Of a DNA stretch of 30,674 nucleotides, positions 1 to 30,674 are shown one piece after another. Source of the DNA: Spongospora subterranea f. sp. subterranea. Taxonomy: Eukaryota. The stretch is taken from positions 62,001 through 92,674 of the forward strand of contig JAUGWO010000080.1 of NCBI GenBank assembly GCA_049724395.1, read 5' to 3'. The translations under genes were made by a program, and so were the position numbers. The first letter of the stretch is position 1. Each line of letters begins with the position of its first letter. The notes under the pieces are model-generated. The model was not told the origin of the DNA, ran no database searches, and saw only the letters and a list, made by a program, of their open reading frames with translations.

Positions 1-68
1 GGGGCCACACGCTCTGTTTCGGCGGTTTCTGTGTCGTTTCTGCAGGTTCAGCGGGCAATCCTAGGGAT

Positions 69-887: not shown

Positions 888-943
888 CACTTCAAATCAA
901 TCTTCAGCCAATGTCAATATACAATCGCGCTTTTTTTTATTTT

Positions 944-1678: not shown

Positions 1679-2122
1679 TGGCCAAGACGATATGAAACCA
1701 GGCGACGGGCGAGTCCCTGGCGATAACTCGGGCAGCAGCGGTGACGTGGAATTATCAACCGTTGGCGTTCAGATAGAGGATCGTATCCGAAAAAGGTCGA
1801 GATTAATGGGATGATGGGGCTCCCCCCAACGAAATTGTCACCGACCAACGACCTTGACTGACGCTACCCAACGCAACATGAACATGACTTGCGCACTTGT
1901 TTGACTTTAGACAGTTGCGGAGTTTTGGGTGACCTTCTGACTCCTTCCTGTTGGTATTTTTGACTAAACCGTCCCGTGCTGTTACATGACGGGAACCCTT
2001 TATGGCTTATCCGTTACACTTGTACTGGTCTATTTTTGGGGTTCACGATCGAGGGCCGTTTGGGAGGTTTGATCGACCAACGACCGAGGGCCGGTTTGGG
2101 AAGAATGATAAATACACAGTGT

Positions 2123-5988: not shown

Positions 5989-7936
<1,948 letters not shown>

Positions 7937-8103
7937 TTTGTGCTATGAACGATTTCCAATCAACCAGTACTTGTGATCAATATCGCCAATAAAGTATCTT
8001 AACACACAGATTGAGGCAGTTTACAGCGATTCATGTCCGGAATGGTTGTTATATTTAAATTTGTGAGATCATCAGTGTATTTATTAGTTAATGGGTTTAT
8101 GGT

Positions 8104-10710: not shown

Positions 10711-12315
10711 CGCCCAACGAATGGCCCAGCCCCAGTTAGGATCAACAAAACACGAAAGTCAGCTCTGGAACGATCTACCAATAGGTTAATGATCTAACTG
10801 AACATTGCGGACATTATTTGAAAAGGTGATGAGTACAAGCGACTGTAGAACATGTTTCATTTGTTATATGTTTCAGTTCATGCTCAACGATACGAGTAAT
10901 GAACAGCGCCACGTAGATTAGATCGGGTCATCGCGCCCGTCATCATCCATGACCGGTCGTGGATCAGCTTATCGATATTTTGGCCAATGCACCCCAAACG
11001 TGCAGGGATCCTAAGATCTCTGCAAGAACTCGGAATTGACTTGCTGTGATGATGCTCAGAGAACTAGGATTTATTTATTGCTGATCACATCTCTTACACG
11101 AAACTTCGTTGGTGTAGATCCAATACACGGATTTGTGTCGTTTTGGAAATCGTACTGAGAACTTTGCTTTGATTTTTTTCACGAAATTCTACAGTATTAC
11201 ACAACAAATTATCTTGTCTCGCTTATTCGTACTAATCATCAAATTTGTTCATCTGCTCCCAATTTTCTAGGAAAGCGGCGCTGTTGGTGATAACGATGGT
11301 CTGTTTTTGACAATTCAAGAAATTCGTCATACCGTTCAATATCGGTAAGTTTATTGGGACCAACTTGCGGTCTTGAGTATCGGCCATTCCTTTTCTGCTG
11401 CCTCCTAAGATTTCGGATCATCAAAGCCCATTGACCCAAAAAACATATGCGGAACCAGTTTATTCTAGAGGAGAAGATTTAACAAATCCTTAAACTAGGG
11501 ATGAATCTCAGCGAATCGCAGTGCAAGACTACTACTCACGCGTAAAATACCTCGTTCAAATCGAGTCGTCTACAATGAGTTTCCGTCCACCGTACCAATT
11601 ATTGTCATTCATTCGCTACCAGCTCGATCCTCTTAAACAAGAACCAGCCACACAAACAAGATAATAATAGTAACAGCGTTTGTTGGATTCGAGACAGTTC
11701 ATTAATGAGAATATAAACAAGCAGCATAACACTGTCACCATAGGAAGGTAGCGTCGTATAAGAAGGTATAGGCAAATCAAGTCTTCAGCTATGATATTGG
11801 ATTATCAAGATGTGATAGGGGTGCTATCTGCTGCACTGAAATGATCAATGGACTGTGCGACCTGATCATCGTGATGAACCGAACTGATCGGTGAAGCGAA
11901 GACGTGTCGAACTGATCAATGTAAAAGAAGTGAATGTATTGATTACAAACAAGTTGCGTTATGAAATAATCAGAGGCACGAGCCCGTTATTAAGGCACGG
12001 GAACACGCGCGTCAACAGAAGGGGTCAAGGAGAAGGAGTGAGACTTTCACACCTGAACAGCGTTAGTCGTTACGTATCGAGGCCGCGCTTGTGTCCCCAT
12101 CTAAGGAGTGCAGTGGTGAGCTGTGGGACGAATAGTGCGCGCCAAATTTGAACTAATGTTGAGAGTTTAAGCATAAGAAGGCTCAGACGCAAAGAGGAAC
12201 GTCGCCATTGCCAAACCATTCATCTCTGGCGTAATAGATATCCTATTTCTTCTTTCAGTTTGACGTCTTCTTCAGCTGCCCTATTCTGCCCTTCGGGTGA
12301 GTAGGGACCCGTTGA

Positions 12316-13249
12316 ATGACGGAATTATCTACCAGATCGCGAACCCGCTCACGTCAGGCATTGTCCAACATTTCTAACAATGAACTTGTTTCAACAGTTA
12401 CAAAAACAAAAACACAAACCATTCTAAAGAGAAGCAGTTTTCGAAAAGGGAAACCTAATCAGGAACTTGAGCAATATGACGTCTATAAAAATATGAGGTA
12501 GAATAAAGGACAACATAGAGCCTTTCAGTTCTGAACATTGCCAAATCAGGTTCAATGAGCTACGATATTATCGCTGTGAAGATTATATGACTTCGACATT
12601 GCAAGCGCATTTATGCCATTCTATGAGAACTATGCTAGTTGCTTGGCTAGTTGAGGTTATGGAGGAATTCAAACTGTCTTCGCAGACCCTTCATATCGCT
12701 GTATATATTTTGGATGGATTCCTAGCCCGGCATTTCAATGTCAAGCCTTGCATTCTGCAGTTGATCGGGATAACGTGCATGTTTATTGCTGCCAAGTACG
12801 AGGAGATACATCCCCTTGATCCCAAAGACTGTTCATACATCACCGATTACACGTACACAGCACAACAAGTTCTGAGCATGGAACAGCGAATTCTGGTCAC
12901 CATGCAGTTTCGCATCAGCGTCGTAACCAGCATTGAATTCCGACATCGATTTCAATGCGAGCACCCTCTGGTCGAATACCTACTGGAATTAACGCTTCGT
13001 GAACCAATGTGTCTGGTCCACAAACCTTCTGAACTTGCTGCGGCTGCCTGCGCTTACGTTCGTGCTGCAATCGGACAGTCAATCTGGCCAAGCTCCATGC
13101 AGTCCAGGACGGGGTATACATTTGGAGCACTTCGTGGATTACTCGAGGAAATCAGGAATTTGCACTGGAGAAATTTCAAGGTTCCCGCTGCCCGATATTC
13201 TCAATTAGCAGAAATATTGCCGTTAGCCTCTATTCCATCATCAATATAA
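12316..13249 (+). CDS. A-type (A/B family) cyclin; exons 12316-12497 and 12550-13249
   Basis: N-terminal destruction box RQALSNISN (12352-12378). Cyclin box MRTMLVAWLVEV...LQLIGITCMFIAAKYEEI...YITDYTY. A 52-nt GT-AG intron joins the two ORFs in frame. Confidence 0.92.
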
Positions 13250-13416
13250 ATCTGTAAAAAGGGTATAACTCATTTTTGGGTATCACCGTGTGAAAGTACA
13301 ATTCTCTCAGAATTACTCGAAAGATTTCACGGTTGGTTGATTGCAATTGTTACAAACCCTGGGCAAAGCTTAATTAAATTCGACAATAAATCTCTAGAAT
13401 TCCGAACAGCGTTACT

Positions 13417-13497
13417 GTCATCGTGTCCGAGTGGTTAAGGAGATCGATTAGAAATCGATTGGGCTTGCCCGCGCGAGTTCGAGTCTCGTCGATGACT
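13417..13497 (+). tRNA. tRNA-Ser (anticodon AGA)
   Basis: Acceptor stem GTCATCG/CGATGAC, D-arm TCCGAGTGGTTAAGGA, anticodon stem ATCGA/TCGAT with loop TTAGAAA, long variable arm GGG-CTTG-CCC and T-loop TTCGAGT. An oligo-T run follows. Confidence 0.93.
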
Positions 13498-13501
13498 TTT
13501 T
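13497..13501 (+). terminator. RNA polymerase III terminator (T5) of the tRNA gene
   Basis: TTTTT immediately after the 3' acceptor strand. Confidence 0.7.
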
Positions 13502-14330
13502 CATTTCGTTTTACGCGGGGTGTTTTTTGGTCAGCTGGACACCACAGGGTGGATCGTTGTCGTGATTGATCCAAGGAGTTCTTGAATTGCATTAGATGTC
13601 CCGCGGAGGCCAACTTGCAGTTTCCCCTCCACAGTTTTGGACGTTGATGAATATTGGACACGCCCCAAAATTGATTGGTTTCCCTGTGAGATCAATTCAA
13701 CGGTTTCAATGCTTTAAATATAAATATGTGTTGTTAGTTGACCGGTCATCAGGCATCGATGACTCGCCCATTCGTTCATAATCAATCTCATCCTGCCCCA
13801 CAAGACGCGATTCTCCCGCATTGATTATATGGGCAATGATATCTGTTGATCTGTGATATGATTCATTAGACGGTTTGCTAATTCAACTAGATTATAGCAG
13901 AATACAGTTGATGCATTACTGCCAGGTGCAGTGCTGTATTTCCAAATTTATCCTGTAGCTGCCACGTGATTTCAAATAACCCAGCACCGTTTGCGTGATC
14001 TACAATGCTGGTGAACCTTTTTAGCCTTATCCACTACGTTTACATAGATTCCAGTTGAGTTGCAATAGACCGTCAAAGTGATGATTTTCAACTATGTTCA
14101 GATAAGTTTGGCGTTGTCTGGCGCGAAACGTATCGAATGGCTTCTGCAGGACTGCGTACACAAGTGGCAACGACAAGGTCACAGGTGTAGGTGTAGCGTT
14201 AGAATCGTAATCACGTGAGTTACATCAACAGAGGTTGACCGTCCCCCTGTCAGTCACTGCACCCAACTTCAATGGTCGTGAGGAGCTTTACCTTGTACTG
14301 TTTCTTCCCAGATATGTACGGCATAGACTG

Positions 14331-14490
14331 AACTGTTGAACTGGGGTTTTATGGTGCAGGAATTGGTCATCAGTTCTGACCGACTAAAGCGTGGCAACTA
14401 ACTGTTGAACTGGGGTTTTATGGTCAAAATTGGATTCCAATTTTGTGCAGGAATTGGTCATCAGTTCCGACCGATTAAAGAGTGGCAACT
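14331..14490. repeat. Tandem duplication of a 69-bp unit; the second copy carries a 22-bp insertion with a perfect palindrome
   Basis: 14331-14399 and 14400-14490 align with 3 substitutions plus the insertion caaaattgga-t-tccaattttg(t) at 14425-14446. Confidence 0.95.
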
Positions 14491-16723
14491 GCTACACGCA
14501 GACCTGGCGTTCAGCATTGTTGAAACAGGTGCAAGGCTGTGTTGGAACATCGACACATTATAGGGTATCCTGGCGTTGGTAAGAGCAGACCGATCAGCGA
14601 CGTCTACCATCATGTAGATAGCGTGCTGTTATTTTTGAGGTGAGTCAACAAGTATTTGTCGCTGCAGTCGCCTCTGTATAATCTGCAAAAATTCCTGGCA
14701 CATCGTCGTTTCGACTTGATGAATAATGCCATGTGTCAAGATACAAAAACAGAACCGTTGCCCAAGGCTTAGGATCGGTTTACAACTTAGAATGGAATTC
14801 ATATGTCCTAAACTATCCACTAACGAGGAGTCGCAAACCGAAAGTGTTTCGGTTTTATGTTTGTAAAATTCAAAAATAGCTTTGGTTTTAAGTAAATGAT
14901 TCTGTACGCCTTGAATTGTCTATCTTTCACTGTGTCGTCATTAAACAAACACGATCATCGGCGTTAATATTGTCTAATACGGTTATCGGTCTGAATACCA
15001 ACAAGTTCACGATCATTAGGAGAGTAGTTATCTTCACTATCATTCTTTGAATCAGTACATTCTTGGTAAGCCCAACAAGTCTGTCTCAATATATTGGGTT
15101 TCCTTTGATCGACATCATCGACATTACAATCCAAGCATGACCTTGATTATTGTTTCGGTTATTTGGAAATCATCCCCGACAAGGGACACCTTGCAATCGT
15201 ATCCTCTTCGGAACAGTGGCGACATTATCTGCACGGCGATAAGTCAAACTCGCTGAGATCAAGCATCTTGTCCAGGTCATGAATCAAACCGTAACAGCCG
15301 TATAATGTTGGTCAATGTTTTTAGTTCGACTTCAGACATGGTGCACAGTTCTTCGGAAAAAACTTCATCAGGAAGGTATCCAATTGCTGCTTGCGATAAG
15401 TGGATTGTTGCCAGACACGCATCATGCTGGGGTTCATCGCAATCAGAATGAGCGTCACTGTGCGCCATGTCCGAAGTCCATCAAAATATCGATCAAGACG
15501 TTCGGGCAGTTACGGTTCATTCCAAGGACCTGGATAAGATTTGATTTTTCATCCTTTGGATCGTGCGGCTCACTGAAATCCTTGATAGGAGTCGACGAAG
15601 AATATGATAAAAAATGGGGAAGAAGATATATGGTGGAGCCGTTTCTCGACGTATCGGGGAAGGCGGTCGCAAATAATGCATTCGCATCGAGGGTGAATAC
15701 CGACAGATAGAAACAGTCCTAATTCAAACAAAACACCATCGTGTTTCTGGAATTCGGCAATTTGTTAGAAGGTGGCCTTGCACAGATTCGGCAGGACTAG
15801 AGTCCTGCAGCACTGCTGGAAAGCGTTTCAATCAGATGGCTTTTGCACCCGAAATTAGAAGGGCAAGGCTTTCCTAGAGCCAATTATTAACTCCAACTAT
15901 CAAGACATATCTGTAAACTTTCATTTTTGTAAAACCGTCCTTAATCGTCCAAATAGGTACTTGGAACAAATGAAGTCTCACTTCGAACCGTATTTAGGGC
16001 AAGGACGATCTCCAAGTCAAAAAGTGATGCAACGAGCGTCTTCAACGACTCCTGCTGATCTGCTAACATAATCATGACCTCGTCGACTACATCATATCCA
16101 ACGACCCAATTGTCTGGAAAATCGGTAGATGACGCCAGATTATAGTGCAACAGATGTGCAAAGAATGAATCAGCGACAAACAGTAACGTTTCGACGTATT
16201 TTCCGAGACAAACAGGTGGACGTCGTGATTGACACAAACGGAAAGGTCCAAGCCAACTTTCGAAGCTGGTCGAATACGCATTCCGCGTTTGTCAAGTTCA
16301 ACGGAAACTGAAACCATTCCCCACGACGCCGAGAATCAATCGCGCGTCTGGGCTGGGCGTCCCCGTTCGGCAGTGACAAGTAGTTGTTCGTACAATTGGC
16401 GACAGGTGACAGTGGAGCCACAAGTACAGTGGCTGAGTGGATCTGACACGTTCGAATATGCCGAGGGTGTGACTGGTCTGCCGCCTGAGCAGGGGCACCA
16501 CTCGACCGCGCTGGTCGCCCGCCGGTCCACGCTTGGCCAGCACCGTAAAACAGCCGCCCGTTCCTGGCAGTGGACCGATATCAGTTTACAAGCCCACTTT
16601 ACCAGGTCGAGAAGGCACCGGTATTGTTGAACTAGCGTTTTGTTGCCAATCTGCGTTTTGATCGGTCGCTGCGTCATTAATCAATATATCCGCTCCGTTT
16701 TATATTAACTAGGTAGCATCAAA

Positions 16724-17554
16724 ATGTCAGATCGTACTGAAGAGGAAGGTGATACGGAGTACAACCAGGTCCAGTATGGCGACGAAGACGATGACGACCC
16801 CGAAGACGATGAGGAAGACGAAGAGCAGGTAGATGTCGTTCAGCAAGATGACGATGAGGATGACGAAGAGGAGGACGAGGATGAAGAGTATGAAGAAGAA
16901 TACGAAGAAGAAGAAGATGATGAAGATGTTCAAGGTGTTGTTCAGATCGCTCGTGGCAGAAGAGAAGAAGAATACGACGAAGATGATGAAGACGAGGATG
17001 CCGACGACGAAGAAGTTGATGATGAATATAACGCGGACGAGGATTTCGCATCTCTTGAAGCCAGAGCAAGCGATTTGGCGGCCGAGGGTTTATCAAATGA
17101 GGCGACCATTCAGGTAAATATTAACTTTTTTTTTTCAAAACATTTTACATCATAACAAGTCAATTTTTTTCAGGTTCTCAAAGTGCTAACACCAGGATTA
17201 GTATCAAAATTACCAGAACTTGATTCATTAGATGATCGGGACGCAAATCAGTTCCGCACTCAAGTGTTGGGCACGTTGGCGTTGTGGATCGAGGTTTTAC
17301 GCGATGGTAAAGGTATAGAACGTTATAGGCGAGCAGGAGGCGTTGGCGATGCAGGAGCCGCTTCTTTAATAGAATCGCTAAACACGTGGCGCGACGCTTT
17401 TTTACAAGACGAAAATCTCGATTTGACAACCGATAATGTTGATGAGGACGATGAGGACGAAGATGACGTCGCTATTGTGAAAGAGTTTATAGATCTGCTG
17501 GATGATCTAAAACAACCTGTTAAAAAGAAACACAAAGGCGCAAATCCTGAATAG
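16724..17554 (+). CDS. Hypothetical hyper-acidic (D/E-rich) protein with C-terminal basic NLS-like motif; exons 16724-17113 and 17174-17554
   Basis: A 60-nt intron (CAG|gtaaat ... ttttcag|GTT) joins two ORFs in phase 0, giving about 256 aa. Long D/E tracts; ends PVKKKHKGANPE. Confidence 0.8.
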
Positions 17555-17715
17555 AATGATGTCATTATTAAGTAAACCATTATCAGTTTCAGTACAAGGT
17601 AATTATTCACTCAATGGCTATCGAAATGGATATTGTCTGAAAAAACACAAAGTACAAGAAAAGCTACAGTGCTTTATTTAACTATTTATAACTCGTCTGG
17701 AAACAGCACTCCTTC

Positions 17716-19530
17716 TCAAAGTTTAGAAGGAAATTTTCGGGCTGATACACCTATTCACTAGTTGTGAGACTATACAGTTATCAATGGACAAACTCGAACC
17801 CGTATAAGCGGCGTCTGGACGAATCAATTTCCCTGACACCCTTTCTTCATTGACATGAGCTACCCAACCAGCGGTTCGAGCTAGCACAAATATTGGGGTG
17901 AACAGCGATGTGGGGATGCCGCCTAAATCCATCAAAAAGACCCATCAGAAACGAGGCAGCCAAAACAGGAGTTGTTGATGACCGACATTGGTTGTATGCA
18001 GAGGCAGAGAAAAAATCTGATTGGTAAAAGACAACAGACTTAGAAGACTGCAAAAAAAAGATTTGCTCCCATACCTAGATTACAAAAAAGTCGCTTCTCA
18101 TCCCACATGAGCTGATTCAGAACTTCGTCAGGATCAGTTGACCATCGCTAAATAGTAATACAGTACCTTCTCAATCGCTTTCGATATCTCGACAAGATTG
18201 GGGTTGCCTCCAGGCAAGCTAGCTAATTCTTCGGAACACGATTTGATAACATCCGATCGCGGATCGCCCTTTTTGTAGACTCGATGACCAAATCCTATAA
18301 AAATGAAAACAACATAAATATGGTGGACAGATAGCAAAAGAATCAATTTGTAATTACCCATTATCAACTTTTTGGTCCTCAACATTTCTTTTACACCTTG
18401 AACCGCTTGATCAGGGGTGGCGAATTGCTCGATAAGGTGCATGGCTGCCTCATTTGCACCACCTATCGAACTTGTACTGTCAGTGATTTTGGGACACGAA
18501 AAGCGTCATCACCGACCGTGCAAAGCGCCTCGCAGCGTCCCAATTCCGGTACATATGCACGAATATATGTCTGATTTAGTACTAGCAGTGACTCGACAAG
18601 CGAATGTGCTGGCGGCGAATCCGTGCTCCTGAGATAGTTAGTCAGATTCCCGGTTACAAGCAAATGTGAATTGACCAAATCTGGAACAGTCATGAGAGTT
18701 ACTTTTACCGACAGCATAAAGGATGAGAGATACATTGACAGCTCGAACTGCCGCCTTCGTAGGATTAGACTGATGCAATAATCGAAGCAAATAATGTGCT
18801 AACGACTCCTGTACATAAAGAAGAGTCAGAACAGAAGAGCAAATAATGATTTTCAAATTACTGTCTGGCTAAGTCCAGATGTATCAATTCTGACACCGGA
18901 TTGGTGAAAATGATGCCAATAGCATAACACAGCAGAAAATACGGAGATAAGAGTTGTAGCTATTTGAGTGGCATGATTACCAGACGATAACTGATAGAGC
19001 CCTGAATGCATAATGAGAACATGATAATTGGGGATGGCATTACAGTACCTGAGGAAGCATCCTGCTGTTCTGGAAATAGAGTTCCTAACATTGAACAGGC
19101 TGTACGTAACACATCCATAGGATGAGCTGATGAGGGAATCAATTCTACCATGTACAGAACGTCAGAAAAAAATACCACAAACAACAATATGAGCTGTGAC
19201 CAATTATAGACTTGAGGGAGTCAGGAATTACTCGAGACTGGTTAACAACATTTTGGAATGAATTGAGTTGACTGTCGGTGGGAAGATCACCAAACATGAG
19301 CAAGTAAGCAACTTGTTCAAATATGCAATTATTTGCAAGATCAATGATAGAATATCCTGAATAAAGAGGACTCAGCGCGGTGAAATTTCCCGCAAGAACA
19401 ATAGTTGGAGACCTCGATATTGAAGGCCATGGCCCTCTGTACCGACCGAAGATATGTTTGTGGTGCCTGCGATGACGCCAGCCATGCCGGAAGCAGGCTC
19501 GGGCTTTGGTAAGGTCGTGGAGGCGGCCAT
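17716..19530 (-). CDS. prpC: 2-methylcitrate synthase / citrate synthase family (bacterial PrpC-type), intron-rich, C-terminal PTS1 (SKL)
   Basis: Spliced motifs [89 protein letters not shown] and [10 protein letters not shown]. The last exon (17716-17750) encodes [10 protein letters not shown]. The PrpC versus citrate synthase call rests on motif resemblance. Confidence 0.85.
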
Positions 19531-19859
19531 CTGGTGGTGGAGTTAGGACAAGATCAGCAATAACGGAGTGGGCGGATCGTTATACAGACCCTTTCTCTTT
19601 AATTCCTCACACTTTATATAACTATATCCGTCGTCAGATAATAAAAGTCCCACAGTTATAACACACTCCTATGTGTCCTTTAAACAGGATCAACGGGTTC
19701 CGTTTATACATTCCGACCTGATCTCGCCAAATTGAATTATCGAAAGTACGTTCGTCAGTAAAATGTTGGAGATTCCGGTGTTAGGTGTCGGGATCTTGTC
19801 AAGTTAGCAATTCTGGTTAGCGACAAGGCTGATCAGTGATCAGCGAATAAGGAAAATAA

Positions 19860-20220
19860 CAGCATGTTCAATCCTTCACCTTTTCGGGTATTTTCGCCAT
19901 GATATCATCATCATATCGGGGGATCGCGTTTTCGTTAATCCATCAAGTAAAGTCAGAATCGACACGAAATACCAGGTCAGACATCTCTGACGAAGTGTTT
20001 GTTTCGCCCGCCTCATGAAAAACCGACAGCGAAAGAAATTAAGCGCTCATGATAGCAACGTCGTCTTACATAACTTCGAAAACACCCGATAGCGCTTTCA
20101 AACCCGAATTTGGCCCCAGATACGAGGCCAATCCGCTTCCAAACCATTAAGTCAAACAACATCAGGAGTAGTGGTATTTCATCGGCACGGAAAGACATAT
20201 AAAAAATGCTCTATCAAAGA
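19860..20220 (-). mobile_element. Possible PIF/Harbinger-like transposase N-terminal remnant
   Basis: Broken peptides FRADEIPLL, VRRRCYHERL and WINENAIPRY resemble the N-terminal region of PIF/Harbinger-type transposases. Stops and frameshifts throughout; no DDE core seen. Confidence 0.3.
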
Positions 20221-20879: not shown

Positions 20880-22030
20880 GCGATGTCAAGTGAGGGGATG
20901 GGAAGCGGGAGTAATAGACCCGAGGGTTTGCGGCGAGGAACTTTCGAACGCGCACAGACGTCACAAGATCGAACAAAAGAGGTGTAACCATCTTTAGCAT
21001 ACCTGGTCAGGTAAAATTGCGAGCAATTGATTCGATTTGATTTCAAAATGTCCTGCCAATGGAGAATCATGACAGGATGAAAGGATATTCAAACGCCTAA
21101 CTGCATCATCGACCACTTCAACTTCGGGGGGAGGAATGGGTCATAGCATTAATAAAGCGAGAACTACGAAAAACGGGTTATCGACGGGTTGATGATCGAC
21201 GGCCGATAATTCAGGACGACGGGACAATGCATCAGGTTTGTGAGAGAGAGATCCGGATCGGTGACGAATGACGAAGTGGGATTGAGACAACAACAATGAC
21301 CAACGAGCGTGACGCCGATTCAACAGTTTAGTTGTCATGAACCATTCGAGGTTCTGTGATCGCTCAACACCAAAATTAAGGATCCAGGTAATGCCTTTAA
21401 GCCTGAAAAGCTGTCACGATGGAATTAGCTCTTTATCTGAATCTCATAATTTAATTCCGATGGTGTAAATTTGCGAGAGTAAAACGCCACAGGGTGTAAT
21501 CCATCTGTGTGTATTCGGGACAAGATTGCACCAACTGCGTAATCGGACGCACCTGATTCGACAATAATGTCCAATTCAGGATCAAAATGGCGTAAAATAG
21601 GCGCCGATACAAAAGCTGACTTCAAAGTCTGAAATGAAGCATCAGCGCTAGTAGATGGCATCCTTCTTGGTCAACGAAAACAGTGGGTTGGTGATGCGTG
21701 AATAATTTGGAATAATCCACGATAGAAGTTCGCAAAACCCAGAAACGATTGAAGCTCTTTGACCGAATTCGGGATTGGTCAAGATATTATTGCTGAAATA
21801 CTTTCTGGATCCATGAGTAAGCCGCGAGAGGACAAGCGGAATCCTAATCTCGGAGACATGGAATACACATTTGCTCAGTTTGGCGAAGAGGTTGTGCTTT
21901 CGTAGAATTTGCAAAACAGTGTGAACGTGTTGAACATGTTCAACACCGTCCGGGGAGAAAATCAACGTGTTGCATTAATACACAACAACGAATCGATCAA
22001 TGCACTCATGTAGATGTCGTTCATGAATCG
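20880..22030 (-). mobile_element. Degenerate Ty3/Gypsy pol fragment (RT C-terminus, RNase H, integrase Zn finger)
   Basis: RFVVVY*CNTLIFS (destroyed YLDD), LFAKLSKCVF, LRHFDPE...[11 protein letters not shown]...[17 protein letters not shown]...DALSR and FVRSCDVCARSK...GLLLPLPIP. The order is RT-RH-INT, with many frameshifts. Confidence 0.92.
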
Positions 22031-22800
22031 GTGAAAACAAGCGGGTGTATTTGCCAAGCCAAAAGGCATCACCAAATATTCAAACAAACCGACTTTTGTC
22101 CTGCATGCAATTGTCCACTCATCGCCTGCCCTGATGCGAACGAGATCTTATTTCGCCATCCCGATCCTATTTACTTGGACAAGGCAACACGAGAGATTAT
22201 GCAATTCATGGAACATGCAGGCTTCGTTATCAACGTGGGCAGCAAAAGTATTCTCATCCCAACTCAACAAGTGTCTTTTTTAGGATTGATTCTGAATACG
22301 CCGCGTTTAACTATTGAAATCCCAACCGACAAACGTACTGCATACGACCATTCGATCCGTTCCTTATTACGACAGAAGTATCCGTCTGTTCGAGATCTTG
22401 CTACCCTTCGCGGCAAATCAAATTTTGTTAACATCTCATCTTCTAGGGGGCAGGCATCTTTGTCAGCACTACATTCACTCATCGGATCCCCAAATTGGCG
22501 ACATCGCGAATATCGTCGCTGGACTGTAGACGCTCGACTCTGTCTACACGATTGGATCCACCGTCATTTATTCCTTGTGGTGGGCGAACTACGCGCAGCT
22601 CAGAAGGCTATTCACGCTCTTCCATGTTGATAACATGGCAGTTCTAGGGATGCTGCAATCAGGACATTCTTCTTCCGTCCAGTGCGCTTCTATTTTACGC
22701 GCAATCCACCGTCGAATCCATATGCAAGCATTGTCTGTGCAATTCCGGTACATTCCTACGACCACTAATTGTATTGCTGACTCTTTGTCAAGACAGCAAC
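22031..22800 (+). mobile_element. DIRS-like (tyrosine-recombinase retroelement) RT/RNase H fragment, internally deleted
   Basis: GFVINVGSKSILIPTQQVSFLGLILNT...IEIPTDKR matches the DIRS-type RT end. ELRAA...DNMAV...GHSSS...YIPTTTNCIADSLSR matches a DIRS-type RNase H. The YxDD motif is degraded. Confidence 0.8.
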
Positions 22801-22869
22801 GCTATTTTATGAGAAAAAGGAAGGTTTTCCACGATTATCGTCCTGTTTGGGAATGCTGTTTTTCTTGAT

Positions 22870-23260
22870 TGTGGGCATCTCATTGAGGTGGAATCGGCTT
22901 GAGATCATTGTTGTAGCGTCGAAAGGGTTCTTGATCTTTGGCAGTAGATACGGTCAGTTCGAATGCCTCAGCGACATCGTGATTGGGGTCCTCATCTCTA
23001 CCGTACTCCAGTTCATGTTCGACAACGGCCTTGAGTGAAGGTGGGCGCAATCCCCCGATTAGAACTTGAACTCGACTTTTAGACTTCTTCTTATCTTCCA
23101 CGTCGTACAAGTGTTCTAGCCCATTACCCGTGATGAGATAGTCGAACGCTGTGAAATAACTCAAAACTCGGTCTTCGGCTCAAGGCCTTAGTGTCACCTA
23201 ATCGAAGTTCTTTCAAATCCTGACAGATTGACTGTTAAGGTCCACAGAAGTTTTTACAGT
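22870..23260 (-). mobile_element. LTR-retrotransposon gag-like remnant
   Basis: SYFTAFDYLITGNGL...VLIGGLRPPSLKAVV resembles Gypsy-type gag capsid segments. It is embedded among TE fragments. Confidence 0.45.
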
Positions 23261-23539
23261 CCGAACAATTGTTCTTTTTCTCACAAATCTTCTTCATTTT
23301 CATTTCATTTCTATCATCATCTCTCCATCGTCACATTCTTTTTATCACCAATTTCTCCAGTCTCATCCTCTCATTCCTGCTAGATTTACAATATCTTCCT
23401 TTTCCTATATCTCCCTCATCAATTTTCGAACGATTCCCTCTTCGTTATCATGGTTGTAAGTCCATCCCCTTCTCCCTCCCCCCGTCGAACTCGGTCTTTC
23501 TCCCGCCCTGATGACAATTCGTAGAGGACGCAAATACCG

Positions 23540-24560
23540 CCATGCTGCGATTGTTGCTGGAATCGTCAAAACGGCGCGACCGTGATTTGGCCGAAGAGCG
23601 TCTGGAGGGGCGCAGCTCAGCGCTTTGAGGCGTGCGGTTTCCCAGTTAAATTTGGCGCAAGGGCGTCGATCGAATCAGATTCTCATCTGCCGATCAAATC
23701 CGATCCCCATTCTCTTCCCCCGCTTCCTCATTGAGTCAGCCAACCTTCCACTCCGGTTTCACAGCAATCGACAGACAGTCATGATTTGGCGCTTCGTCGG
23801 TCTATCATGAATTTACCACAATTTTACGATTATGTCACGTTATAAGAAATTCACAAGTACTTGGGATCAACGCGACGTCGAGTGTGGGAAACCGTGCTTC
23901 TGACCCGATGTCTAAAGTTTGAGACTTTCGTGGATTCTTTTGACCGACTGATGGGTCGGCTTGGCGACTCAATGCGTTGTGATGTTCTGCTGCAATCATT
24001 GAGGGAGACGGCTCTGGAGCGAGCTTTGCAAGCTGGTGAGACTTCGTACCTCAGTCTCATTGGTCTGCTGCGCCGGTGGTATCAGAACGATCCATCAATC
24101 GTCAAACCGGCGTCAGTGGACCTACCTGCCCAACTTGATCGAGCGGTTCCTGCATCGCAGGAAATACTATCCGATTATGTGGAATTATGGCGTCGGGCTT
24201 AGTCCACGTTCAAAATCGTATACGCAGAGGCGTCTTTATTGGCTGAGATCCGTTCGGTTTTAATTTTTGTAAGAAACAATCCTTCTGCACGCTATGCACA
24301 ATTTTCCATCTGCGACTCCTCCTTCCCCACTCATTCCACCTTCACGCTCTACACTCATTCCCCATCTGCGACACCTCCCGTTACGACTCCTCTATCGTCG
24401 AACAAGCACGTTCGTTTACGCCTCAGTGTGTGCACTGTCATTCTATTGATTATCTGGTGCGACAATGCCCGGCTTGCACTGAAGCTGAACGCGAACAGCA
24501 TCTCTGGGCCTTGAATGAACTCACGGTCAAACAATTGTCAGGAGGCGCAACCCGATCAGG
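23540..24560 (+). mobile_element. Degenerate gag-like ORF with mutated zinc knuckle
   Basis: Interrupted reading frames end in CVHCHSIDYLVRQC (24427-24468), which has CX2CX4HX4C spacing with His replaced by Tyr. Confidence 0.5.
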
Positions 24561-24639
24561 CACATGTATCTAATACACACTGTGCCGTGGAAACCGAACT
24601 GACCTAACCTCACTTTGGTTAACGCCGTTTTTGAATCGA

Positions 24640-24784
24640 TGTTATTCCCGTCTTCGTCCCGACCATCTTCGTCTCTCTCTCTCCCTCGTTATAGTTCTCT
24701 CCTTCTAGCTCCCGCTTTGGCCCCCCTTCGTTAGCCTGCTTCCTCGTCTACATCTCTCAACTTCATTATTTCCGGTTCATAACA
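24640..24784 (+). repeat. Putative 5' LTR (possibly partial)
   Basis: Pyrimidine-rich segment bounded by 6-bp inverted termini TGTTAT...ATAACA, ending 14 nt before the gag ATG. No second LTR in the window. Confidence 0.5.
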
Positions 24785-24870
24785 GTTTAACCAAACCCAT
24801 GGTATCTACTCGAAACCATTCCCCCTCGCCCGTTAGTCCATCCAATGTTGAACTCGTGAATCCGCCTGAC

Positions 24871-25682
24871 GGCACTCCTATTCCATACCAACGCTAATTC
24901 AACAATTGCAAACGCAGATCTTGGATCTACAAAGCCAACTTGCAGATTTGCAAAGCCAACGATCCGAATCAGGTACCGACATGGTCACAACTCTGGCCTG
25001 CATACAAGTTGAGGTATCGGAATTACAAGTGCGAATCCCTACCCCAAACCCCACAAGCGCTTCCACAGCCTCCTATTGCTCAGTTGCCGAAACCCAACCA
25101 GTTTTCTGGCGATCGCAGTAAATTCCGACAGTGGTTCTGCCAAGTCACTAACTACCTGAGAATCTACAGTACTGGATATACATCAGACACGATGCGAGTA
25201 GGGCTGTTCAGTAGGGCTGTTCACCAGCCTCATGACCGAGTCGGCGCTCCTATGGCTGATGCCCTATGTTGAATCCAAGTCTTATATTTTAGATAACTTT
25301 GAGGGATTTATCGAAAACTTAAAACTTGATTCTACCTCAATCACAGTTCGACGTTATTCAACTTGGTTATGATTGGCTACAAAAGTTCAATCCACAGATA
25401 GACTGTCGAACTGGCAAGTTGAGAGTTTCTCATGCTGAATCCCCAGTCATTCCATTAGCATTAATGTCAGTCATCCACATGACCTCAAGGCCTGGTGCGA
25501 CGGTTTGGGGTAGGGATTCGCACTTGTAATTCCGATACCTCAGCCTGTATGCGGGCCAAAGTTGTGACCATGTCGGTACCTGATTCGGATCGTTGGCTTT
25601 GCGATTCTGCAAGTTGGCTTTGTAGATCCAAGATCTGCGTTTGCAATTGTTGAATTAGCGTTTGGTATGGAATAGGAGTGCC
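24871..25682. repeat. Inverted repeat: arms 24871-25050 and 25502-25682 (gag 5' region)
   Basis: Manual alignment gives 6 substitutions and 1 indel over about 180 bp. Confidence 0.97.
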
Positions 25683-26634
25683 TGGACGATATATTGATAT
25701 ATTCTGATACAGAAGCTGATCACATAAATCACGTTCGCTCCGTCCTGACAGTGTTACGGGAACAAGGTCTGTACGTTGAAATGGAAAAATGTGCTTTCCA
25801 CGCTTCAGAGGTTCAATTTTTTGGATATATAATCTCCAACAAATGTGTCAAAATGGACCCAGCCCGTGTCGATGCTGTTAATTCGTGGCCCCAACCCCTC
25901 TTTGTCAAGGAGTTTTACTTCAATCATTCTTAGGATTTGCAAATTTTTATCGACAATTTAATTCCAATTTCGCATCAACCTGTATGCCTTTATATGAACT
26001 AAGGTCTGACCACGTGGCCTCTAATGAATGTGGGAGAGCGAGCTGCTTGCAGTAAACTCGGAAACTCTGGATAGGCAATGTAATCAGGTGGGGGCAGGTC
26101 CCATTCGGTGTGGTCGGTAGGACAGATTATGTTGCTGAATCCAGCTGGTCTAATAGGTTCCTTCATTGGATACCCAAGCTACTTGTAGCGGCCAGGCGGA
26201 AGTAGGGAAAGTCTGGTAGTACACAGGCTTACTCAACCCATAAGAACCCGCGATCCTTTGTATACCATACCATACCATTTATATGAACTAACAACAAACA
26301 TGCAACCTTCAAGTACACTCCCCAATGTCAAATTTCCTTTCACTCCGCAATCAACTGCGCAAGTCACGAATCGACGAGATGCTGGCGGCGATCGATCGTG
26401 TTGCTGGTGGTGGGGAGTCGGCTGGCACCAAGGGTGACAGTCTAGGGATGCCTGGCGGGGTAGTCTTTCCTGACGATGACTAGAACTCTGAAGTGTCAGC
26501 TGCACTCCCAATTTCCTCTGAGTCTTCAGAGCGGGCCAAATTTTAGAACAGCCGTCAAAAGCTGTTCTCGCCGTTCATTGAATACTTATCATTGGTATGA
26601 GATGAGCGGACAGGTCCTTGTTGTCAATTCCTGC

Positions 26635-26700
26635 ACTGACGGAAAATATTTTGGAAGTCGGTACTTTACTGACAGAAAAATTATTAGAAGTCGGTGCTGT
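26635..26700 (+). repeat. Two degenerate 33-bp tandem units
   Basis: actgacggaaaatattttggaagtcggtacttt / actgacagaaaaattattagaagtcggtgctgt. Confidence 0.8.
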
Positions 26701-26713
26701 ATGAATGACTCAA

Positions 26714-26863
26714 CCGACAATACTACCATTTACTGGTGGCTATCCGACAATATTACCATTCTTTGGTGGCAATCCGACAATACCACCATTTATTGGTGGC
26801 AAACTGACAACACGACCATTAATTGGTGGCAATCTGACAATAAAACCATTTATAGGTGGCAAT
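26714..26863 (+). repeat. Five tandem 30-bp units in the LINE 5' region
   Basis: Consensus cYgacaataNNaccattNNNtggtggcaat, with units starting at 26714, 26744, 26774, 26804 and 26834. Confidence 0.97.
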
Positions 26864-27229
26864 GGCCAAAAGGAACACTAGTGACACTAAAACTATACTG
26901 GAAGTACAATGCCGTCATTTGGTGGAAACTACTGGTTAAGACGAAATATGGTCCCATTAACAGGGCCAAACAAGGGCCACAATTAACATCAACAACTATT
27001 AACAAGACTTTGACAGGAACAGTATACACGCCAAGTAATTGCACTTTTTGGTGGAAGCATAAGCGAACGACAACAACAAAAACACGGAATAATGCTCCTA
27101 ATAATAATGACATACAAACGCACAGAAGTAAGAGCAACACACATAAGAGGACACAAAACATTAATGAAACACATAATACTGACAAAAGTAAAACAATTAA
27201 GACAACACTACGACAAAATTACATAGGGA

Positions 27230-28264
27230 TAATGAATGCAGACGTGACAAATAATATCAGCACAATGAACGAATCCACAATAAGTAACGTCCCACAGATG
27301 ACTAAATGCCGTTGTATTAGGGGAATCGGCATACTATACGTGCCAGTGTCGCTCTCAGAATACATCCGTGGCGCAATTAAACCACGAACAGAAACGCTTC
27401 ATCTAGGCATCATGCAGAACGTTCCAATGGAGACCGAAACCAACAAGGAACAAACAATAGGAAGAAAACATCCCAGGGACAGGGCAACCACATCTAATGC
27501 AACATCCGATAAGACCAAAAAGATGAAGGACAAATTCATACCACGGTCAATGATGAATTATAACGGAAGCGATTTTAATGCCCAAAACACAACATGAAAT
27601 AGAAACTCTATTACCGGAACTCATCCAAGAAATACCTTGGCTCATGGCTAAACTAAAGAATGACGTTACGCCAATGGGAACAGGCACGATAATCATCAAA
27701 GGGCTAAAAATAGGTACACACCGAAGAATAGTTAAAAGAATAGTAACGAAACTAACTCCAACCACTCAGGACAATACAAAGCCCTGCAACAATACTGTGG
27801 GAGAAAAGGAATTCGAATCAGACCTACATCAGAGTCCAAACACGACACCAGCCGTAAAGTTATTGTGCAAGGCATCCCACCATACCTTATTAAAAACGGA
27901 ATGGCGATACAAGGCTGGAAAGGAAAACAACCGGACAAAGCTACCCAAATTGGAAGCAACACTACCATGTTCCAATTCCAGATGGCAAGTGATGCGAAGC
28001 AATGTCTATCGCAGGGAACGGTACATATATTCGGGAAACAATACAAGCCCCTGGCCTTCCAAAAAAAGGAAATACGAGTATGTGAAACATGCTACCAGAT
28101 TGAGTGCCTCCAAAAAAAACAAATGTGGCAAGATTGCCTGCTACATATGCAGTGAAGCTCACATGGCCGACTCATGCCCAAAGAAGAATAAGGATGAGCC
28201 TAAGTGCATTACATGCCAGGAAGAGGGACATTGGGCCATCCAATGCCCATGGCGTTACCTGTAA
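27230..28264 (+). pseudogene. LINE ORF1 (gag-like, RRM-like region plus three Cys/His knuckles), disrupted by frameshifts; start uncertain
   Basis: KVIVQGIPP...RVCETCYQIEC lies in one frame and CYICSEAHMADSC plus CITCQEEGHWAIQC in the next, switching at the A8 run 28112-28119. Further shifts are likely near 27556 and 27735-27800. Confidence 0.8.
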
Positions 28265-28528
28265 ATCAAGATTCAATAAAGCAAATATGACAAAGGGCCA
28301 CAAAAAGATGAGCAAAATGCAAATTGAATTTACCTACACTGAAAGCCGCAGTTATGACATGCTGAAGGAGTACACAAAGACTGGCAGATTGTGGTTTGTT
28401 TCATTATACAGGAAGGCCAAGATCTTATATTGCACCCCGAAATTAGATGCCGTCCCCTGCGACAACCAATTCTTCGCATCACTCGATACCTGGAATTGGA
28501 ACATGGTAAAATTGTTTCCAATTAGGGT
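27943..28528. repeat. Diverged gapless inverted repeat within the LINE: arms 27943-28060 and 28411-28528
   Basis: 118-bp arms, 91/118 identical by manual codon-wise alignment, no indels. Confidence 0.95.
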
Positions 28529-30674
28529 GTGGTTGAATGTAAAACGTGGGAAAAAACCAAATAACAGCAAAGTATGGAAAACAAGTGAAAACAAAACACT
28601 GGAACAATCAACACCATACAGTGGCGGAAACAGCAAAGGACTCCATACATCATGCATGGTGGAGATAAAAGAATACGAAATACGTATTTAGAGATGTCAT
28701 CGGAATAGGAAACTGCGCTTTCGAGGCGATCAGAGCATCAGGAGCGATCCCGAATATGACAGTGCAAAACCTACGAAAGGAAATATGTGAATTCGCTAGA
28801 AATCCTGAGCAAGGAAGAACCATTGCTAAAAAATTAAAACCCTATATAGGATCGCTGCCAAACAATGACAGCATAGGATTGGATGAATATCTGAATATAA
28901 TGAGTATCGATAGACAATGGGGAGGGTTGTTCGAACTCACCATAGCTGCATACAAATTTAAAATGAACATAATAGTAGTAAGTCAGACGAATCCAACGCT
29001 CATAACAGATATACAGAAATGGATAGAGAACACGTTACCAAAGTCACGTGATGTAACACCATGGACCAAAACAATTTACTTGTTACATCACAAGCATGGG
29101 AAACCATCAACACCAATGAGACATCAAGACTTGAACCATTATGGGACCCTTTTCCCTATAGAAACAACGGCTAGTGAATGGAATAATAGCGGTATGATGA
29201 CACCAGACAAATGTGACCTTTACATTGATCAGTACAAATTATCAAACAAAACAGACAGCTCAGCAACGCAAAATGTTAGAAATGATAATTCCAAACAGCA
29301 ATTTATGATAAAACCATCGCTAGACAAAACGATGAGACACGATAAAAACATAAATCCGAAAAGGCACCGATCATGCGACGATTCCGACGACCAACCCACT
29401 CAACGTGCCAAATATGAAAAACATCAAACGCACTCTAAACAAATCTGCACAAAAAAGCGAACATTGCTGATAGATAAGGACGGCACTGAAACGCAGTATA
29501 AAAGACGGCTTACCAACAGCGAGCGCCAATGCAAAGAAGTTGCAGACAATGAAACAGCGCGAAAAACAGCCTCAAAACAGACACCAACAAGCCAGATGAG
29601 CCACTACGAACTCACCAAATTGATCGGAAATATACTAGAACCAGACAACAAGGAAGACAATATAGCAGACACATCGGACAAAAACCTGAACGGAACTAAA
29701 ACACACAAACGGCAGATGAAAATAACTCAATATTTCATGAAAACCAATACCAAAACCAGAAAAATAAGAACAACCAGGAGCTTAAAAATCGCTCAATGGA
29801 ACGCCTGCTCCCTAAGCGAACAAAAATCAAAAGAACTGTCTCGATTTGCTAACACCAACCGCGTCGATGTAATATGTATATCAGAACTTCACCATAGACG
29901 CCAAGTAGACGATTTCCCAAACCACGAAGCCGATGACCGGTACACCCAAGCTGGAATTTTTTGGAGGGACCATGTAAATGTAGATGTGATGCGCATTCCT
30001 GCAATACAAACGTTTGGGAACGACGGAATCATGACACAAATAGTAAAAATATATAGTGAAATGATATTAATTCACATATATATACCACCGGATATAGATC
30101 GAAATACTAGAAAAACATATTGGAAACAAATCGGCAAATTCGTAGAAATGCGAGATGAACCGATACTTCTAACAGGTGACCTCAACACCAAAGATAGACG
30201 GTTTGGAATCCACCATGACGAAACTCACAAATACCTAGACAGCATATTGGAAGAATGCAAATTGATGAACAACCCGGAACGCCCAACAAGAGGAAACAAC
30301 TCATTAGATATCACCATTGCCAATCGACAGATGGCAAAGGAGATCTTACAATGGGACGTGCACGCAGAGCTAGGCAGTGACCATTCACCGACAACAATAG
30401 ATACTACAATTAGAAGAAAATCGACGAAAGGATTCCCCCTAGCCGTACACAGAACCATAATTGACACACGAGCTCATAATGAGTAACTGAAGAGGAACTG
30501 CAGAATGTTGAAAGCAAGAACATGGGACTAACAGCTTTCATTGACCTATTGCAAAATAGCATTAAGCACAAATATGTTAGACAGAATAGATGCAAATTCT
30601 GGACCACGAAACTCAAAATTGCGTTAAACTTGCGAAATAAACTCAAGCGCAAACACCAGGAAGCCATACTGAAA
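28287..30674 (+). pseudogene. LINE ORF2: N-terminal extension, OTU-like cysteine protease, PIP box, APE endonuclease (RT outside window); frameshifts near 28667 and 30481
   Basis: OTU: VIGIGNCAFEA (Cys 28714-28716), EYL..M....WGG..EL and NHY (His 29137-29139). APE (29782-30390): IAQWNACSL, DVICISE, IYIPP, LTGDLN, PTR...LDITI and LGSDH. The post-endonuclease FWTTKLK...RNKLKRK continues in a shifted frame. Confidence 0.88.

What the first reader, a model, noticed from the sequence alone, without database searches (positions are those of the whole stretch)
28669..29160. LINE ORF2 carries an OTU deubiquitinase-like protease ahead of the APE endonuclease
Seen: the ORF2 frame is open from 28669, upstream of the ATG used by the ORF track, and reads YVFRDVIGIGNCAFEAIR...LRKEICEF...DEYLNIMSIDRQWGGLFELTIAA...IYLLH...NHYGTL. 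It is in frame with an intact-looking APE domain. Established: this matches the OTU signature (GDGNC-F Cys loop, WGG-xx-EL, terminal HY). Ubiquitin/SUMO-type proteases occur in only a few non-LTR lineages (Ulp1-like in NeSL, Josephin-like in Dualen), and OTUs are better known from Helitrons and viruses. Inference: this LINE family encodes its own deubiquitinase or self-processing protease. Caveat: the usual Asp at Cys-3 is Ile and His+2 is Gly, so this copy may be atypical or decayed.
Basis: partly seen in the sequence, partly recalled or inferred. Interest (0 to 1): 0.88.

Follow-up and report, generated by a model that had tools for sequence, protein, structure and literature searches.

The report
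Spliced LINE with built-in OTU protease
A multi-copy jumping gene of a plant-root protist carries a ubiquitin-protease-like domain inside one long reading frame, and likely makes its packaging protein from spliced RNA and its copying enzyme from unspliced RNA, with the protease predicted to cut that enzyme free.

Summary
The OTU domain is real: Pfam OTU passes its curated cut-off, and the model (pLDDT 88) matches OTUD3, Otu2 and viral OTUs. It is not decay. Cys is invariant in 8 of 8 close relatives, Ile/Val at Cys-3 and Gly/Ala at His+2 are family traits, and 16 of 27 listed differences are silent.

28669 is not the start. Four single extra bases in the window are missing from the main contigs of all 4 runs laid. 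Without them one frame runs from 26379 past 30420: leader, ORF1's DNA in the shifted frame, OTU, PIP-like box, APE. Removing a 56-nt GT-AG intron, seen spliced in one RNA run, gives a 608-residue ORF1p instead. A distant relative keeps the same layout and a predicted intron at the same codon.

Relatives without OTU carry a conserved RLPPPGN peptide at this spot; the OTU clade lacks it. Best guess: a leader-releasing protease (about 0.5), with deubiquitinase activity the main rival. No activity was tested, and the RT lies outside the window.

The parts
26341..30674 (+). 5' part of a multi-copy APE-type LINE; it runs off the window before the RT
   Evidence: Many different flanks join at 26339-26341 in contigs, plus an empty-site-type contig at 26340 in 4 of 4 runs; A-rich coding strand from about 26800
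26379..30423 (+). Long frame of the unspliced RNA (1347 codons from the first ATG to 30423, still open): leader, overlap with ORF1, OTU, linker, PIP-like box, APE
   Evidence: after leaving out single bases at 26466, 27565, 28112 and 28667 that the main contigs of 4 of 4 runs lack; start codon inferred
26379..27713 (+). ORF1 exon 1, shared N-terminus of both predicted proteins
   Evidence: residues 354-406 align weakly with relative L001 (E 8e-4)
26714..26863 (+). Five 30-nt tandem repeats inside the leader frame
   Evidence: a low-depth relative lacks a net 120 nt here, in frame
27714..27769 (+). 56-nt spliceosomal-type intron (GT...CTAAC...CAG), phase 1 in a Gly codon, open in the long frame; its removal shifts the frame into ORF1 exon 2
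   Evidence: Skipped in one contig of polyA RNA run X16 (depth 13.5), not skipped in X1, X2 or X14; predicted 50-nt counterpart at the same codon in L001
27770..28264 (+). ORF1 exon 2: RRM-like region (label inferred) and two CCHC-type knuckles; dual-coding with the long frame
   Evidence: zf-CCHC 19.8 bits (cut-off 20.8), DUF4283 E 0.09; 27-29% identity to L001; shifted frame stop-free in 0 of 5000 synonymous recodings
28139..28246 (+). Two zinc knuckles of ORF1 (28139-28177 and 28205-28246)
27943..28528 (.). Inverted repeat, arms 27943-28060 and 28411-28528, 77% alike; the second arm is an inverted copy of ORF1 DNA now read in the leader
   Evidence: RNA fold z -8.7 against 20 shuffles
28617..28634 (+). 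YSGG|NS, candidate cleavage site just before the OTU (weak)
   Evidence: GG also present in P0062; absent in P0004, P0016, P0019/P0138 and P0034
28638..29165 (+). OTU-fold cysteine protease domain; Cys 28714, Trp 28918, His 29137; no acidic third residue
29713..29736 (+). PIP-box-like motif QMKITQYF (consensus recalled)
   Evidence: a matching motif in 30 of 40 relatives examined
29785..30395 (+). APE endonuclease with its catalytic motifs
28771..30349 (-). Antisense transcript(s) with GT-AG introns at 28771-29038, 29156-29513, 29156-29859, 29999-30234 and 30235-30349
   Evidence: CT..AC joints in RNA-type runs X2 and X16 only; library protein P0002 equals the window with two of these introns removed, 241 of 241 residues
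30426..30487 (+). Stretch where the window differs from all 4 runs; the source of the apparent stop

Best explanation
The stretch is a conserved OTU-fold cysteine-protease domain inside the long reading frame of a multi-copy LINE, and it likely acts as a self-processing protease that frees the endonuclease and reverse transcriptase from a leader of about 750 residues. Shown: the OTU fold, the conserved Cys/His pair, selection on the domain, one open frame from 26379 through ORF1's DNA to the APE, and a spliced RNA that shifts into the ORF1 knuckles. Inferred: unspliced RNA is the template for copying and is translated into a leader-OTU-PIP-APE-RT polyprotein; spliced RNA makes the abundant ORF1p; the OTU works as a Cys/His dyad, cuts the polyprotein, and has replaced the RLPPPGN peptide that relatives carry at this position. 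It may also remove ubiquitin, as viral OTU-fold proteases do.
For: Domain. Conservation and selection. In-frame link to APE in a divergent family: P0038 spans the His strand, linker, PIP-like box and APE start and groups with the window's APE (95/81). Long frame and intron. Same layout in L001 (one 1891-codon ORF with the knuckle ORF nested in the +2 frame), with a predicted intron at the same Gly codon; knuckle pairs hidden in the shifted frame of P0006 and P0013 (0 of 200 shuffles each). Shifted frame stop-free in 0 of 5000 recodings in both elements. Position: 25 of 40 relatives carry R[LI][PR]PPG just before the PIP-like box and APE; the window family, P0038 and P0025 do not; five relatives lacking it begin with a Met at or just before the PIP-like box. 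Precedent: TYMV PRO, an OTU-fold dyad without third residue, processes a polyprotein and removes ubiquitin (PMC3744425, passages); Copia elements make Gag from spliced and Gag-Pol from unspliced RNA (PMC5580714, passages).
Against: No activity data. No conserved Gly-Gly or LxG cleavage motif lies between OTU and APE, and GG before the OTU is seen in only 2 of 6 lineages. The function of RLPPPGN is unknown and it is not a 2A motif, so 'replacement' is an argument from position. Sense splicing was seen in one contig of 1 of the 2 RNA-type runs laid; X2 shows the unspliced form at depth 120. Internal ATGs exist (27992, 28194, 28287; two inside L001's predicted intron), so the enzyme could start downstream. 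Helitrons and Ginger transposons carry OTUs with no such leader. No single protein with OTU plus RT was found; the OTU-like start of P0031 is not significant (E 0.057), and this family's RT is outside the window.
Confidence: 0.5

Rival explanations
1. The OTU is mainly a deubiquitinase that stays attached to the LINE enzyme. It protects the enzyme from proteasomal removal or, brought in by the neighbouring PIP-like box, trims ubiquitin at PCNA-bound insertion sites.
For: The closest folds are true deubiquitinases: OTUD3 Z 15.3 (rmsd 2.5, 132 aligned), Otu2 Z 14.5 (rmsd 2.7, 135 aligned). A PIP-like box lies 190 residues downstream. The same role is proposed for transposon-borne OTU, VTD and Josephin domains. 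No clear cleavage site was found.
Against: It does not explain why the OTU clade lacks the RLPPPGN peptide, nor how a 750-residue leader would be shed. The third catalytic residue is absent. Ubiquitin-binding surfaces were not examined.
Confidence: 0.3
2. The OTU is a conserved but catalytically weak or dead module (ubiquitin-binding or scaffold), and the enzyme is made by internal initiation after ORF1.
For: Ile/Val replaces Asp at Cys-3 in 8 of 8 close rows and no acid or Asn sits at His+2; ATG 28287 lies 23 nt after the ORF1 stop.
Against: Cys, His and the Trp are kept across lineages down to 35% identity. The Cys-3 residue contributes its main-chain nitrogen, and dyad OTUs are active. Internal initiation does not explain 163 stop-free codons in the overlap of two distant elements.
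Confidence: 0.15
3. The OTU-APE pair belongs to a Helentron or another nested DNA transposon, or is a chance chimera in this one copy.
For: Helentrons carry both OTU and AP endonuclease. An inverted fragment of ORF1 lies just before the OTU, and distant OTU hits include proteins that look transposase-like by eye.
Against: No room for Rep or helicase: about 205 residues separate OTU and APE. One unbranched DNA contig at depth 2140 spans 27340-29725. The APE's nearest full-length relatives are APE-RT-RNase H proteins. P0038 repeats the link in another family.
Confidence: 0.04

Closest known systems
RNase H-bearing APE-type LINEs (I/Ingi/Tad-like group; group name recalled, not placed by RT phylogeny)
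   Same: CCHC-knuckle ORF1 and APE in the window; RT, RNase H and C-terminal zinc motif in the nearest full-length relatives; the clade profile matches human L1 ORF2p best in the PDB (E 9e-31).
   Different: ORF1 is split by an intron and nested in the shifted frame of one long ORF; an OTU domain and a PIP-like box lie before the APE.
Protease-bearing non-LTR elements: NeSL and Utopia-1_TSP (Ulp1-like; PMC4640811, passages) and Dualen (Josephin-like; bioRxiv 2021.04.23.441226, passages)
   Same: A ubiquitin/SUMO-type cysteine protease N-terminal to the retrotransposon enzyme.
   Different: Other protease families and RLE-bearing lineages; no OTU in the passages seen.
OTU domains of Helitrons/Helentrons and Ginger1 DNA transposons (PMC2836005, PMC4067079, PMC9741609; passages)
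   Same: Pfam PF02338 carried by a mobile element; activity stated as untested as of 2022.
   Different: DNA transposons; here the OTU sits in a retrotransposon frame with a family-specific G[IV]GNC loop.
Viral OTU-fold processing proteases, TYMV PRO (PMC3744425, passages)
   Same: OTU fold, Cys/His dyad without a third acid, embedded in a polyprotein (TYMV PRO Z 6.7, rmsd 3.1, 93 aligned).
   Different: The LINE domain is structurally nearer OTUD3, Otu2 and nairovirus OTUs, and keeps the oxyanion Trp; no cleavage site is known.
Ty1/Copia EVD splice switch (PMC5580714, passages)
   Same: Spliced RNA for the structural protein, unspliced RNA for the polyprotein; splicing changes the frame.
   Different: An LTR element, where splicing creates a stop; here splicing adds the knuckle-bearing half of ORF1p from an overlapping frame.
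2A/StopGo peptides before the APE in L1Tc, Ingi and other LINEs (PMC3894237, first third read; PMC3708506, listing only)
   Same: A device placed just before the APE that separates it from an in-frame leader.
   Different: No DxExNPGP here; the device is a protease domain, or in relatives an unrelated RLPPPGN peptide of unknown action.

Membership tests
OTU cysteine protease (PF02338) | Profile match above the curated cut-off | tested here: met
   30.8 bits against 23.3; Atlas 0.94, 192 of 256 features
OTU cysteine protease (PF02338) | OTU fold | tested here: met
   pLDDT 88.3 on the 99%-identical P0001 with a 20-row alignment; Foldseek E 9e-7; Z 15.3, rmsd 2.5, 132 aligned to OTUD3
OTU cysteine protease (PF02338) | Catalytic Cys and His conserved | tested here: met
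   Cys in 8 of 8 rows; His in 5 of 5 rows that reach it, plus P0038
OTU cysteine protease (PF02338) | Asp/Asn as third catalytic residue at His+2 | tested here: not met
   Gly or Ala in 6 of 6 clade sequences; also absent in 10 of 11 more distant hits with the His motif. Not universal in the family: TYMV PRO has Ser
OTU cysteine protease (PF02338) | Oxyanion hole (main chain of Cys-3, conserved Trp) | tested here: inconclusive
   Trp kept at 28918; Ile/Val at Cys-3; model geometry could not be inspected
OTU cysteine protease (PF02338) | Cleaves ubiquitin or peptide bonds | not testable with these tools
   Needs a bench assay
APE-type LINE | APE endonuclease with catalytic motifs | tested here: met
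APE-type LINE | ORF1 with CCHC knuckles upstream | tested here: met
   Two knuckles; zf-CCHC 19.8 bits, just under the 20.8 cut-off; the RRM label is unproven
APE-type LINE | Reverse transcriptase downstream of the APE | tested here: inconclusive
   The window ends first; the nearest full-length APE relatives have it; no genome is held
APE-type LINE | Dispersed copies with a common 5' end | tested here: met
   Different flanks at 26339-26341; depth 2140 against 42-85 for four divergent contigs listed for X1; not calibrated on a single-copy gene
APE-type LINE | 3' tail and target-site duplication | not testable with these tools
   The 3' end is outside the window
Canonical bicistronic LINE layout | Separate, unspliced ORF1 and ORF2 | tested here: not met
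   One long frame with ORF1 nested and intron-split
I/Ingi/Tad-like RNase H group | RNase H after RT, and placement by RT phylogeny | tested here: inconclusive
   RNase H in relatives only; no reference clade set was available
Helentron | Rep and helicase ahead of the AP endonuclease | tested here: not met
   No such domains or room between OTU and APE
2A/StopGo peptide | Terminal NPGP/HPGP motif | tested here: not met
   Not in the window frame and not matched by RLPPPGN; motif definition

The most novel reading that the evidence does not exclude
A clade of protist LINEs expresses itself like a Copia element: a retained intron switches one RNA between ORF1p and a long polyprotein over a dual-coded region, and interchangeable devices in front of the APE (a self-cleaving OTU here, a new recoding or self-cleaving RLPPPGN peptide in relatives) release the enzyme.
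Probability: 0.35. Interest if true: 0.9.

Novelty: new variant of a known kind. Interest (0 to 1): 0.78.

Why it matters
How LINEs make much ORF1p and little enzyme is a long-standing question; the usual answers are reinitiation or 2A peptides. This family points to a third route, splicing over an overlapping frame, which also requires an intron to survive retrotransposition. It adds OTU to the proteases carried by non-LTR elements and gives a compact, well-folding 170-residue domain with which to test what transposon-borne OTUs do, which a 2022 paper states was untested. The RLPPPGN peptide is a candidate for a new translation-recoding element.

Tried and rejected
Single-sequence AlphaFold failed (pLDDT 37); the alignment-based model was used instead. 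PDB sequence search gave only weak viral OTU hits (best E 0.045). Searches for one protein holding OTU plus RT found nothing; the 'near' search returned 4 already known proteins. The OTU alignment found no loci in metagenome or genome contigs; the RT alignment found none in viral contigs and 18 + 1 loci elsewhere, of which 0 of the 18 metagenome loci hit the OTU profiles (L019 was not scanned) and only L001 holds the ORF1 overlap. P0031's N-terminus looks like an OTU end by eye but is not significant. Ubiquitin-like domains ending in GG in P0099 and P0129 were seen by eye but got no Pfam hit and did not align with each other: unproven. A -1 frameshift instead of splicing: no slippery heptamer at 27600-27900 in the window, two in L001. 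Terminal inverted repeats: none found in 4 loci examined. Rfam: one chance-level hit. The RRM label is not confirmed by PDB search. The OTU tree is mostly unresolved, so no donor can be named. Decayed-copy reading rejected. No complex prediction was run. The first comparison of P0002 with the window used a wrong offset and was repeated correctly.

Full report
1. Observation. The frame 28669-30486 is open for 605 codons and contains the quoted motifs. Pfam finds OTU (E 4.8e-7, 30.8 bits, cut-off 23.3) and Exo_endo_phos at residues 375-549. A model of library protein P0001 (99% identical to residues 1-184) built on a 20-row alignment has pLDDT 88.3. All Foldseek rows shown are OTU structures, and the independent structural search ranks OTUD3 (Z 15.3, rmsd 2.5, 132 aligned), yeast Otu2 (14.5) and OTUD1 (14.3) first. 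The domain is an OTU.

2. Organism. No genome is held. Library protein P0002 is labelled Spongospora subterranea and matches the window at 241 of 241 residues once two introns are removed; OTU and APE relatives P0019, P0138 and P0025 carry the same label. The window is therefore most likely from this plasmodiophorid or a very close relative (inference).

3. Not a decayed copy. In 8 aligned close relatives (6 lineages, 35-100% identical) G-x-G-N-C is invariant and Cys-3 is Ile in 6 and Val in 2. His is present in the 5 rows that reach it and in P0038, followed at +2 by Gly or Ala in all 6. Among more distant hits, 10 of 11 with the His motif also lack an acid or Asn there. Of the 27 differences inside the domain that one search listed (148 further rows of that table were not shown), 17 are at third positions and 16 are silent, against 21% expected (p 1.7e-5); these are pooled from several low-depth contigs. 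In viral OTUs the Cys-3 residue contributes its main-chain nitrogen, and TYMV PRO is active without a third residue (PMC3744425, passages). Activity is plausible but untested.

4. A multi-copy element with errors in this assembly. Of 20 runs that hold the stretch, 4 were laid. One DNA contig spans 27340-29725 unbranched at depth 2140, while four divergent contigs listed for that run have depth 42-85. That suggests tens of near-identical copies, though depth is not a calibrated copy number. Contigs with different flanks meet at 26339-26341, marking the 5' end. The window has one extra base at each of 26466, 27565, 28112 and 28667 relative to the main contigs of all 4 runs, and differs at 30426-30487. 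Four indels against very few substitutions point to assembly error (inference); a private defect of this copy is not excluded. Three library proteins read through 28667.

5. The real layout. With those four bases left out, the unspliced element has one frame open from 26343 to beyond 30423 (1347 codons from ATG 26379). It runs through the DNA of ORF1's C-terminal half in the shifted frame and on into OTU, linker, a PIP-box-like motif (consensus recalled) and APE. One contig of polyA RNA run X16 skips 27714-27769, a 56-nt GT-AG intron with a CTAAC branch motif. The DNA-type runs X1 and X14 and the RNA-type run X2 do not show the skip. Removing it yields a 608-residue protein that shares the leader's first 445 residues and ends in two zinc knuckles. 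The 163 overlapping codons have no stop in the long frame; 0 of 5000 synonymous recodings achieve this (mean 6.7 stops), whereas the third frame has 9.

6. The layout is conserved. Metagenome locus L001, whose APE is about 37-48% identical and which has no OTU, has one 1891-codon ORF from leader to the end of the element, with a 180-codon knuckle ORF nested in the same relative frame. It is again stop-free in 0 of 5000 recodings. Among 5 candidate introns passing my filter, a 50-nt one splits a Gly codon at the position matching the window's intron, and the two exon-2 products align from their first residue at 27% (E 8e-23). The L001 intron is predicted, not observed. Library proteins P0006 and P0013 hide a knuckle pair in the shifted frame with the same spacing (0 of 200 shuffles each); of the other 21 library proteins scanned, most with short leaders, 19 showed none and 2 a single match.

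7. What sits before the APE. Of 40 library proteins with at least 45 residues before the APE-start motif (a few are mis-anchored), 25 carry R[LI][PR]PPG, part of a longer R-x-EE-x2-D-x-I-x-R-L-P-P-P-G-N peptide, right before the PIP-like box, and 30 carry the PIP-like box. The window family, P0038 and P0025 lack the peptide and fall in one supported APE clade (95/81; P0038 and P0025 are short rows). P0038 holds the OTU His strand, linker, PIP-like box and APE start in one frame. Five relatives without the peptide start with a Met at or just before the PIP-like box. The peptide also occurs in elements with an ordinary separate ORF2 and a short hydrophobic leader (L013). I infer that the mature enzyme begins near the PIP-like box and that the peptide and the OTU are alternative ways to shed an in-frame leader. 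This parallels 2A peptides in other LINEs (PMC3894237, first third read), but RLPPPGN is not a 2A motif (PMC12338488, passages) and its action is unknown.

8. Mechanism. Shown: points 1, 3, 5 and the sequence facts of 6 and 7. Inferred: unspliced RNA serves as template and as message for a leader-OTU-PIP-APE-RT polyprotein; spliced RNA gives ORF1p, as Copia elements do for Gag (PMC5580714, passages); the OTU cuts the polyprotein (0.5). Against: no conserved cleavage motif, internal ATGs, one spliced contig only, and no RT seen for this family. Main rival: a deubiquitinase that protects the enzyme or acts at PCNA (0.3); both activities could coexist. A dead module (0.15) and a Helentron or chimera (0.04) are less likely.

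9. Antisense RNA. Five CT..AC joints appear only in the RNA-type runs; they are GT-AG introns on the minus strand. One (28771-29038) is in both X2 and X16, and P0002 independently contains two others. Four splice combinations tried gave no antisense ORF above 140 codons across this region. These may be read-through or regulatory transcripts; they could also explain why X2 shows the sense intron unspliced (inference).

10. What is known. OTU domains are reported in Helitrons/Helentrons and Ginger1 (PMC2836005, PMC4067079, PMC9741609; passages); Ulp1-like proteases in NeSL and Utopia (PMC4640811, passages); Josephin-like in Dualen (bioRxiv 2021.04.23.441226, passages). Searches listed no paper on an OTU in a LINE; searches none on an intron-split LINE ORF1; search 60 none on the peptide; search 59 none on these elements in plasmodiophorids. 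I judged most of these from listings and abstract openings. PMC10318531 has no mention of transposons. Repbase Reports and most subscription journals are not covered and no supplements were read, so a prior description cannot be excluded. Earlier scan notes (unchecked) mention similar overlaps or optional introns in LINEs of other genomes.

11. Verdict. A real OTU domain in a recently spread LINE family whose expression layout is itself unusual. New variant of a known kind; interest 0.78.

Noticed in passing
P0007, P0020, P0036 and 22 more; L001:2521, L002:861: Conserved peptide R-x-EE-x2-D-x-I-x-R-L-P-P-P-G-N directly before the PIP-like box and APE, doubled in P0036, often after a hydrophobic helix; candidate new recoding or self-cleaving element.
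   Followed up: partly
window 28771-30349 (-): Antisense transcripts with five GT-AG introns; two of them abut at 30234/30235 (AG|GT), as at a recursive splice site.
   Followed up: partly
window 27943-28060 and 28411-28528: Inverted copy of ORF1 DNA, 91 of 118 positions paired, predicted to fold around the knuckles and the ORF1 stop; possibly a scar of the OTU capture.
   Followed up: partly
P0099 (345-412) and P0129 (360-432): More distant LINEs with ORF1-like and ORF2 parts in one frame have a stretch ending in LQGG or IIGG before the APE that looks ubiquitin-like by eye; no Pfam support.
   Followed up: partly
window 26880-28440; P0137: Internally deleted copies: a 26880-28440 joint in X16 with matching loose ends in DNA run X14; P0137 joins the leader near 27200 to the OTU in frame.
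   Followed up: no
window 21000-26340: Decayed retroelement remains (weak RT hit at 21651-21974, gag-like hit at 24898-25269) with a 161-nt inverted repeat, 96% alike, at 24890-25050 and 25502-25662; the LINE is inserted at their edge.
   Followed up: no
P0001, P0136, P0137, P0003: Pieces of this eukaryotic element are filed as hypothetical proteins of Bacillus on contigs of 433-837 bases: likely contamination of bacterial assemblies.
   Followed up: no
P0007, P0012, P0015: Relatives whose RNase H is split by a long insertion of about 200-400 residues.
   Followed up: no
window 26340-26467: The first 127 bases have about three times the depth of the rest in run X1 and are shared with contigs that then diverge; possibly short derivatives or sister families with the same 5' end.
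   Followed up: no
window 1-20000: Compact host genes: GDT1 (69-887) and a cyclin (12497-13249) confirmed by Pfam; others (cullin, kinase, citrate synthase, NXF1-like) named by eye only.
   Followed up: no
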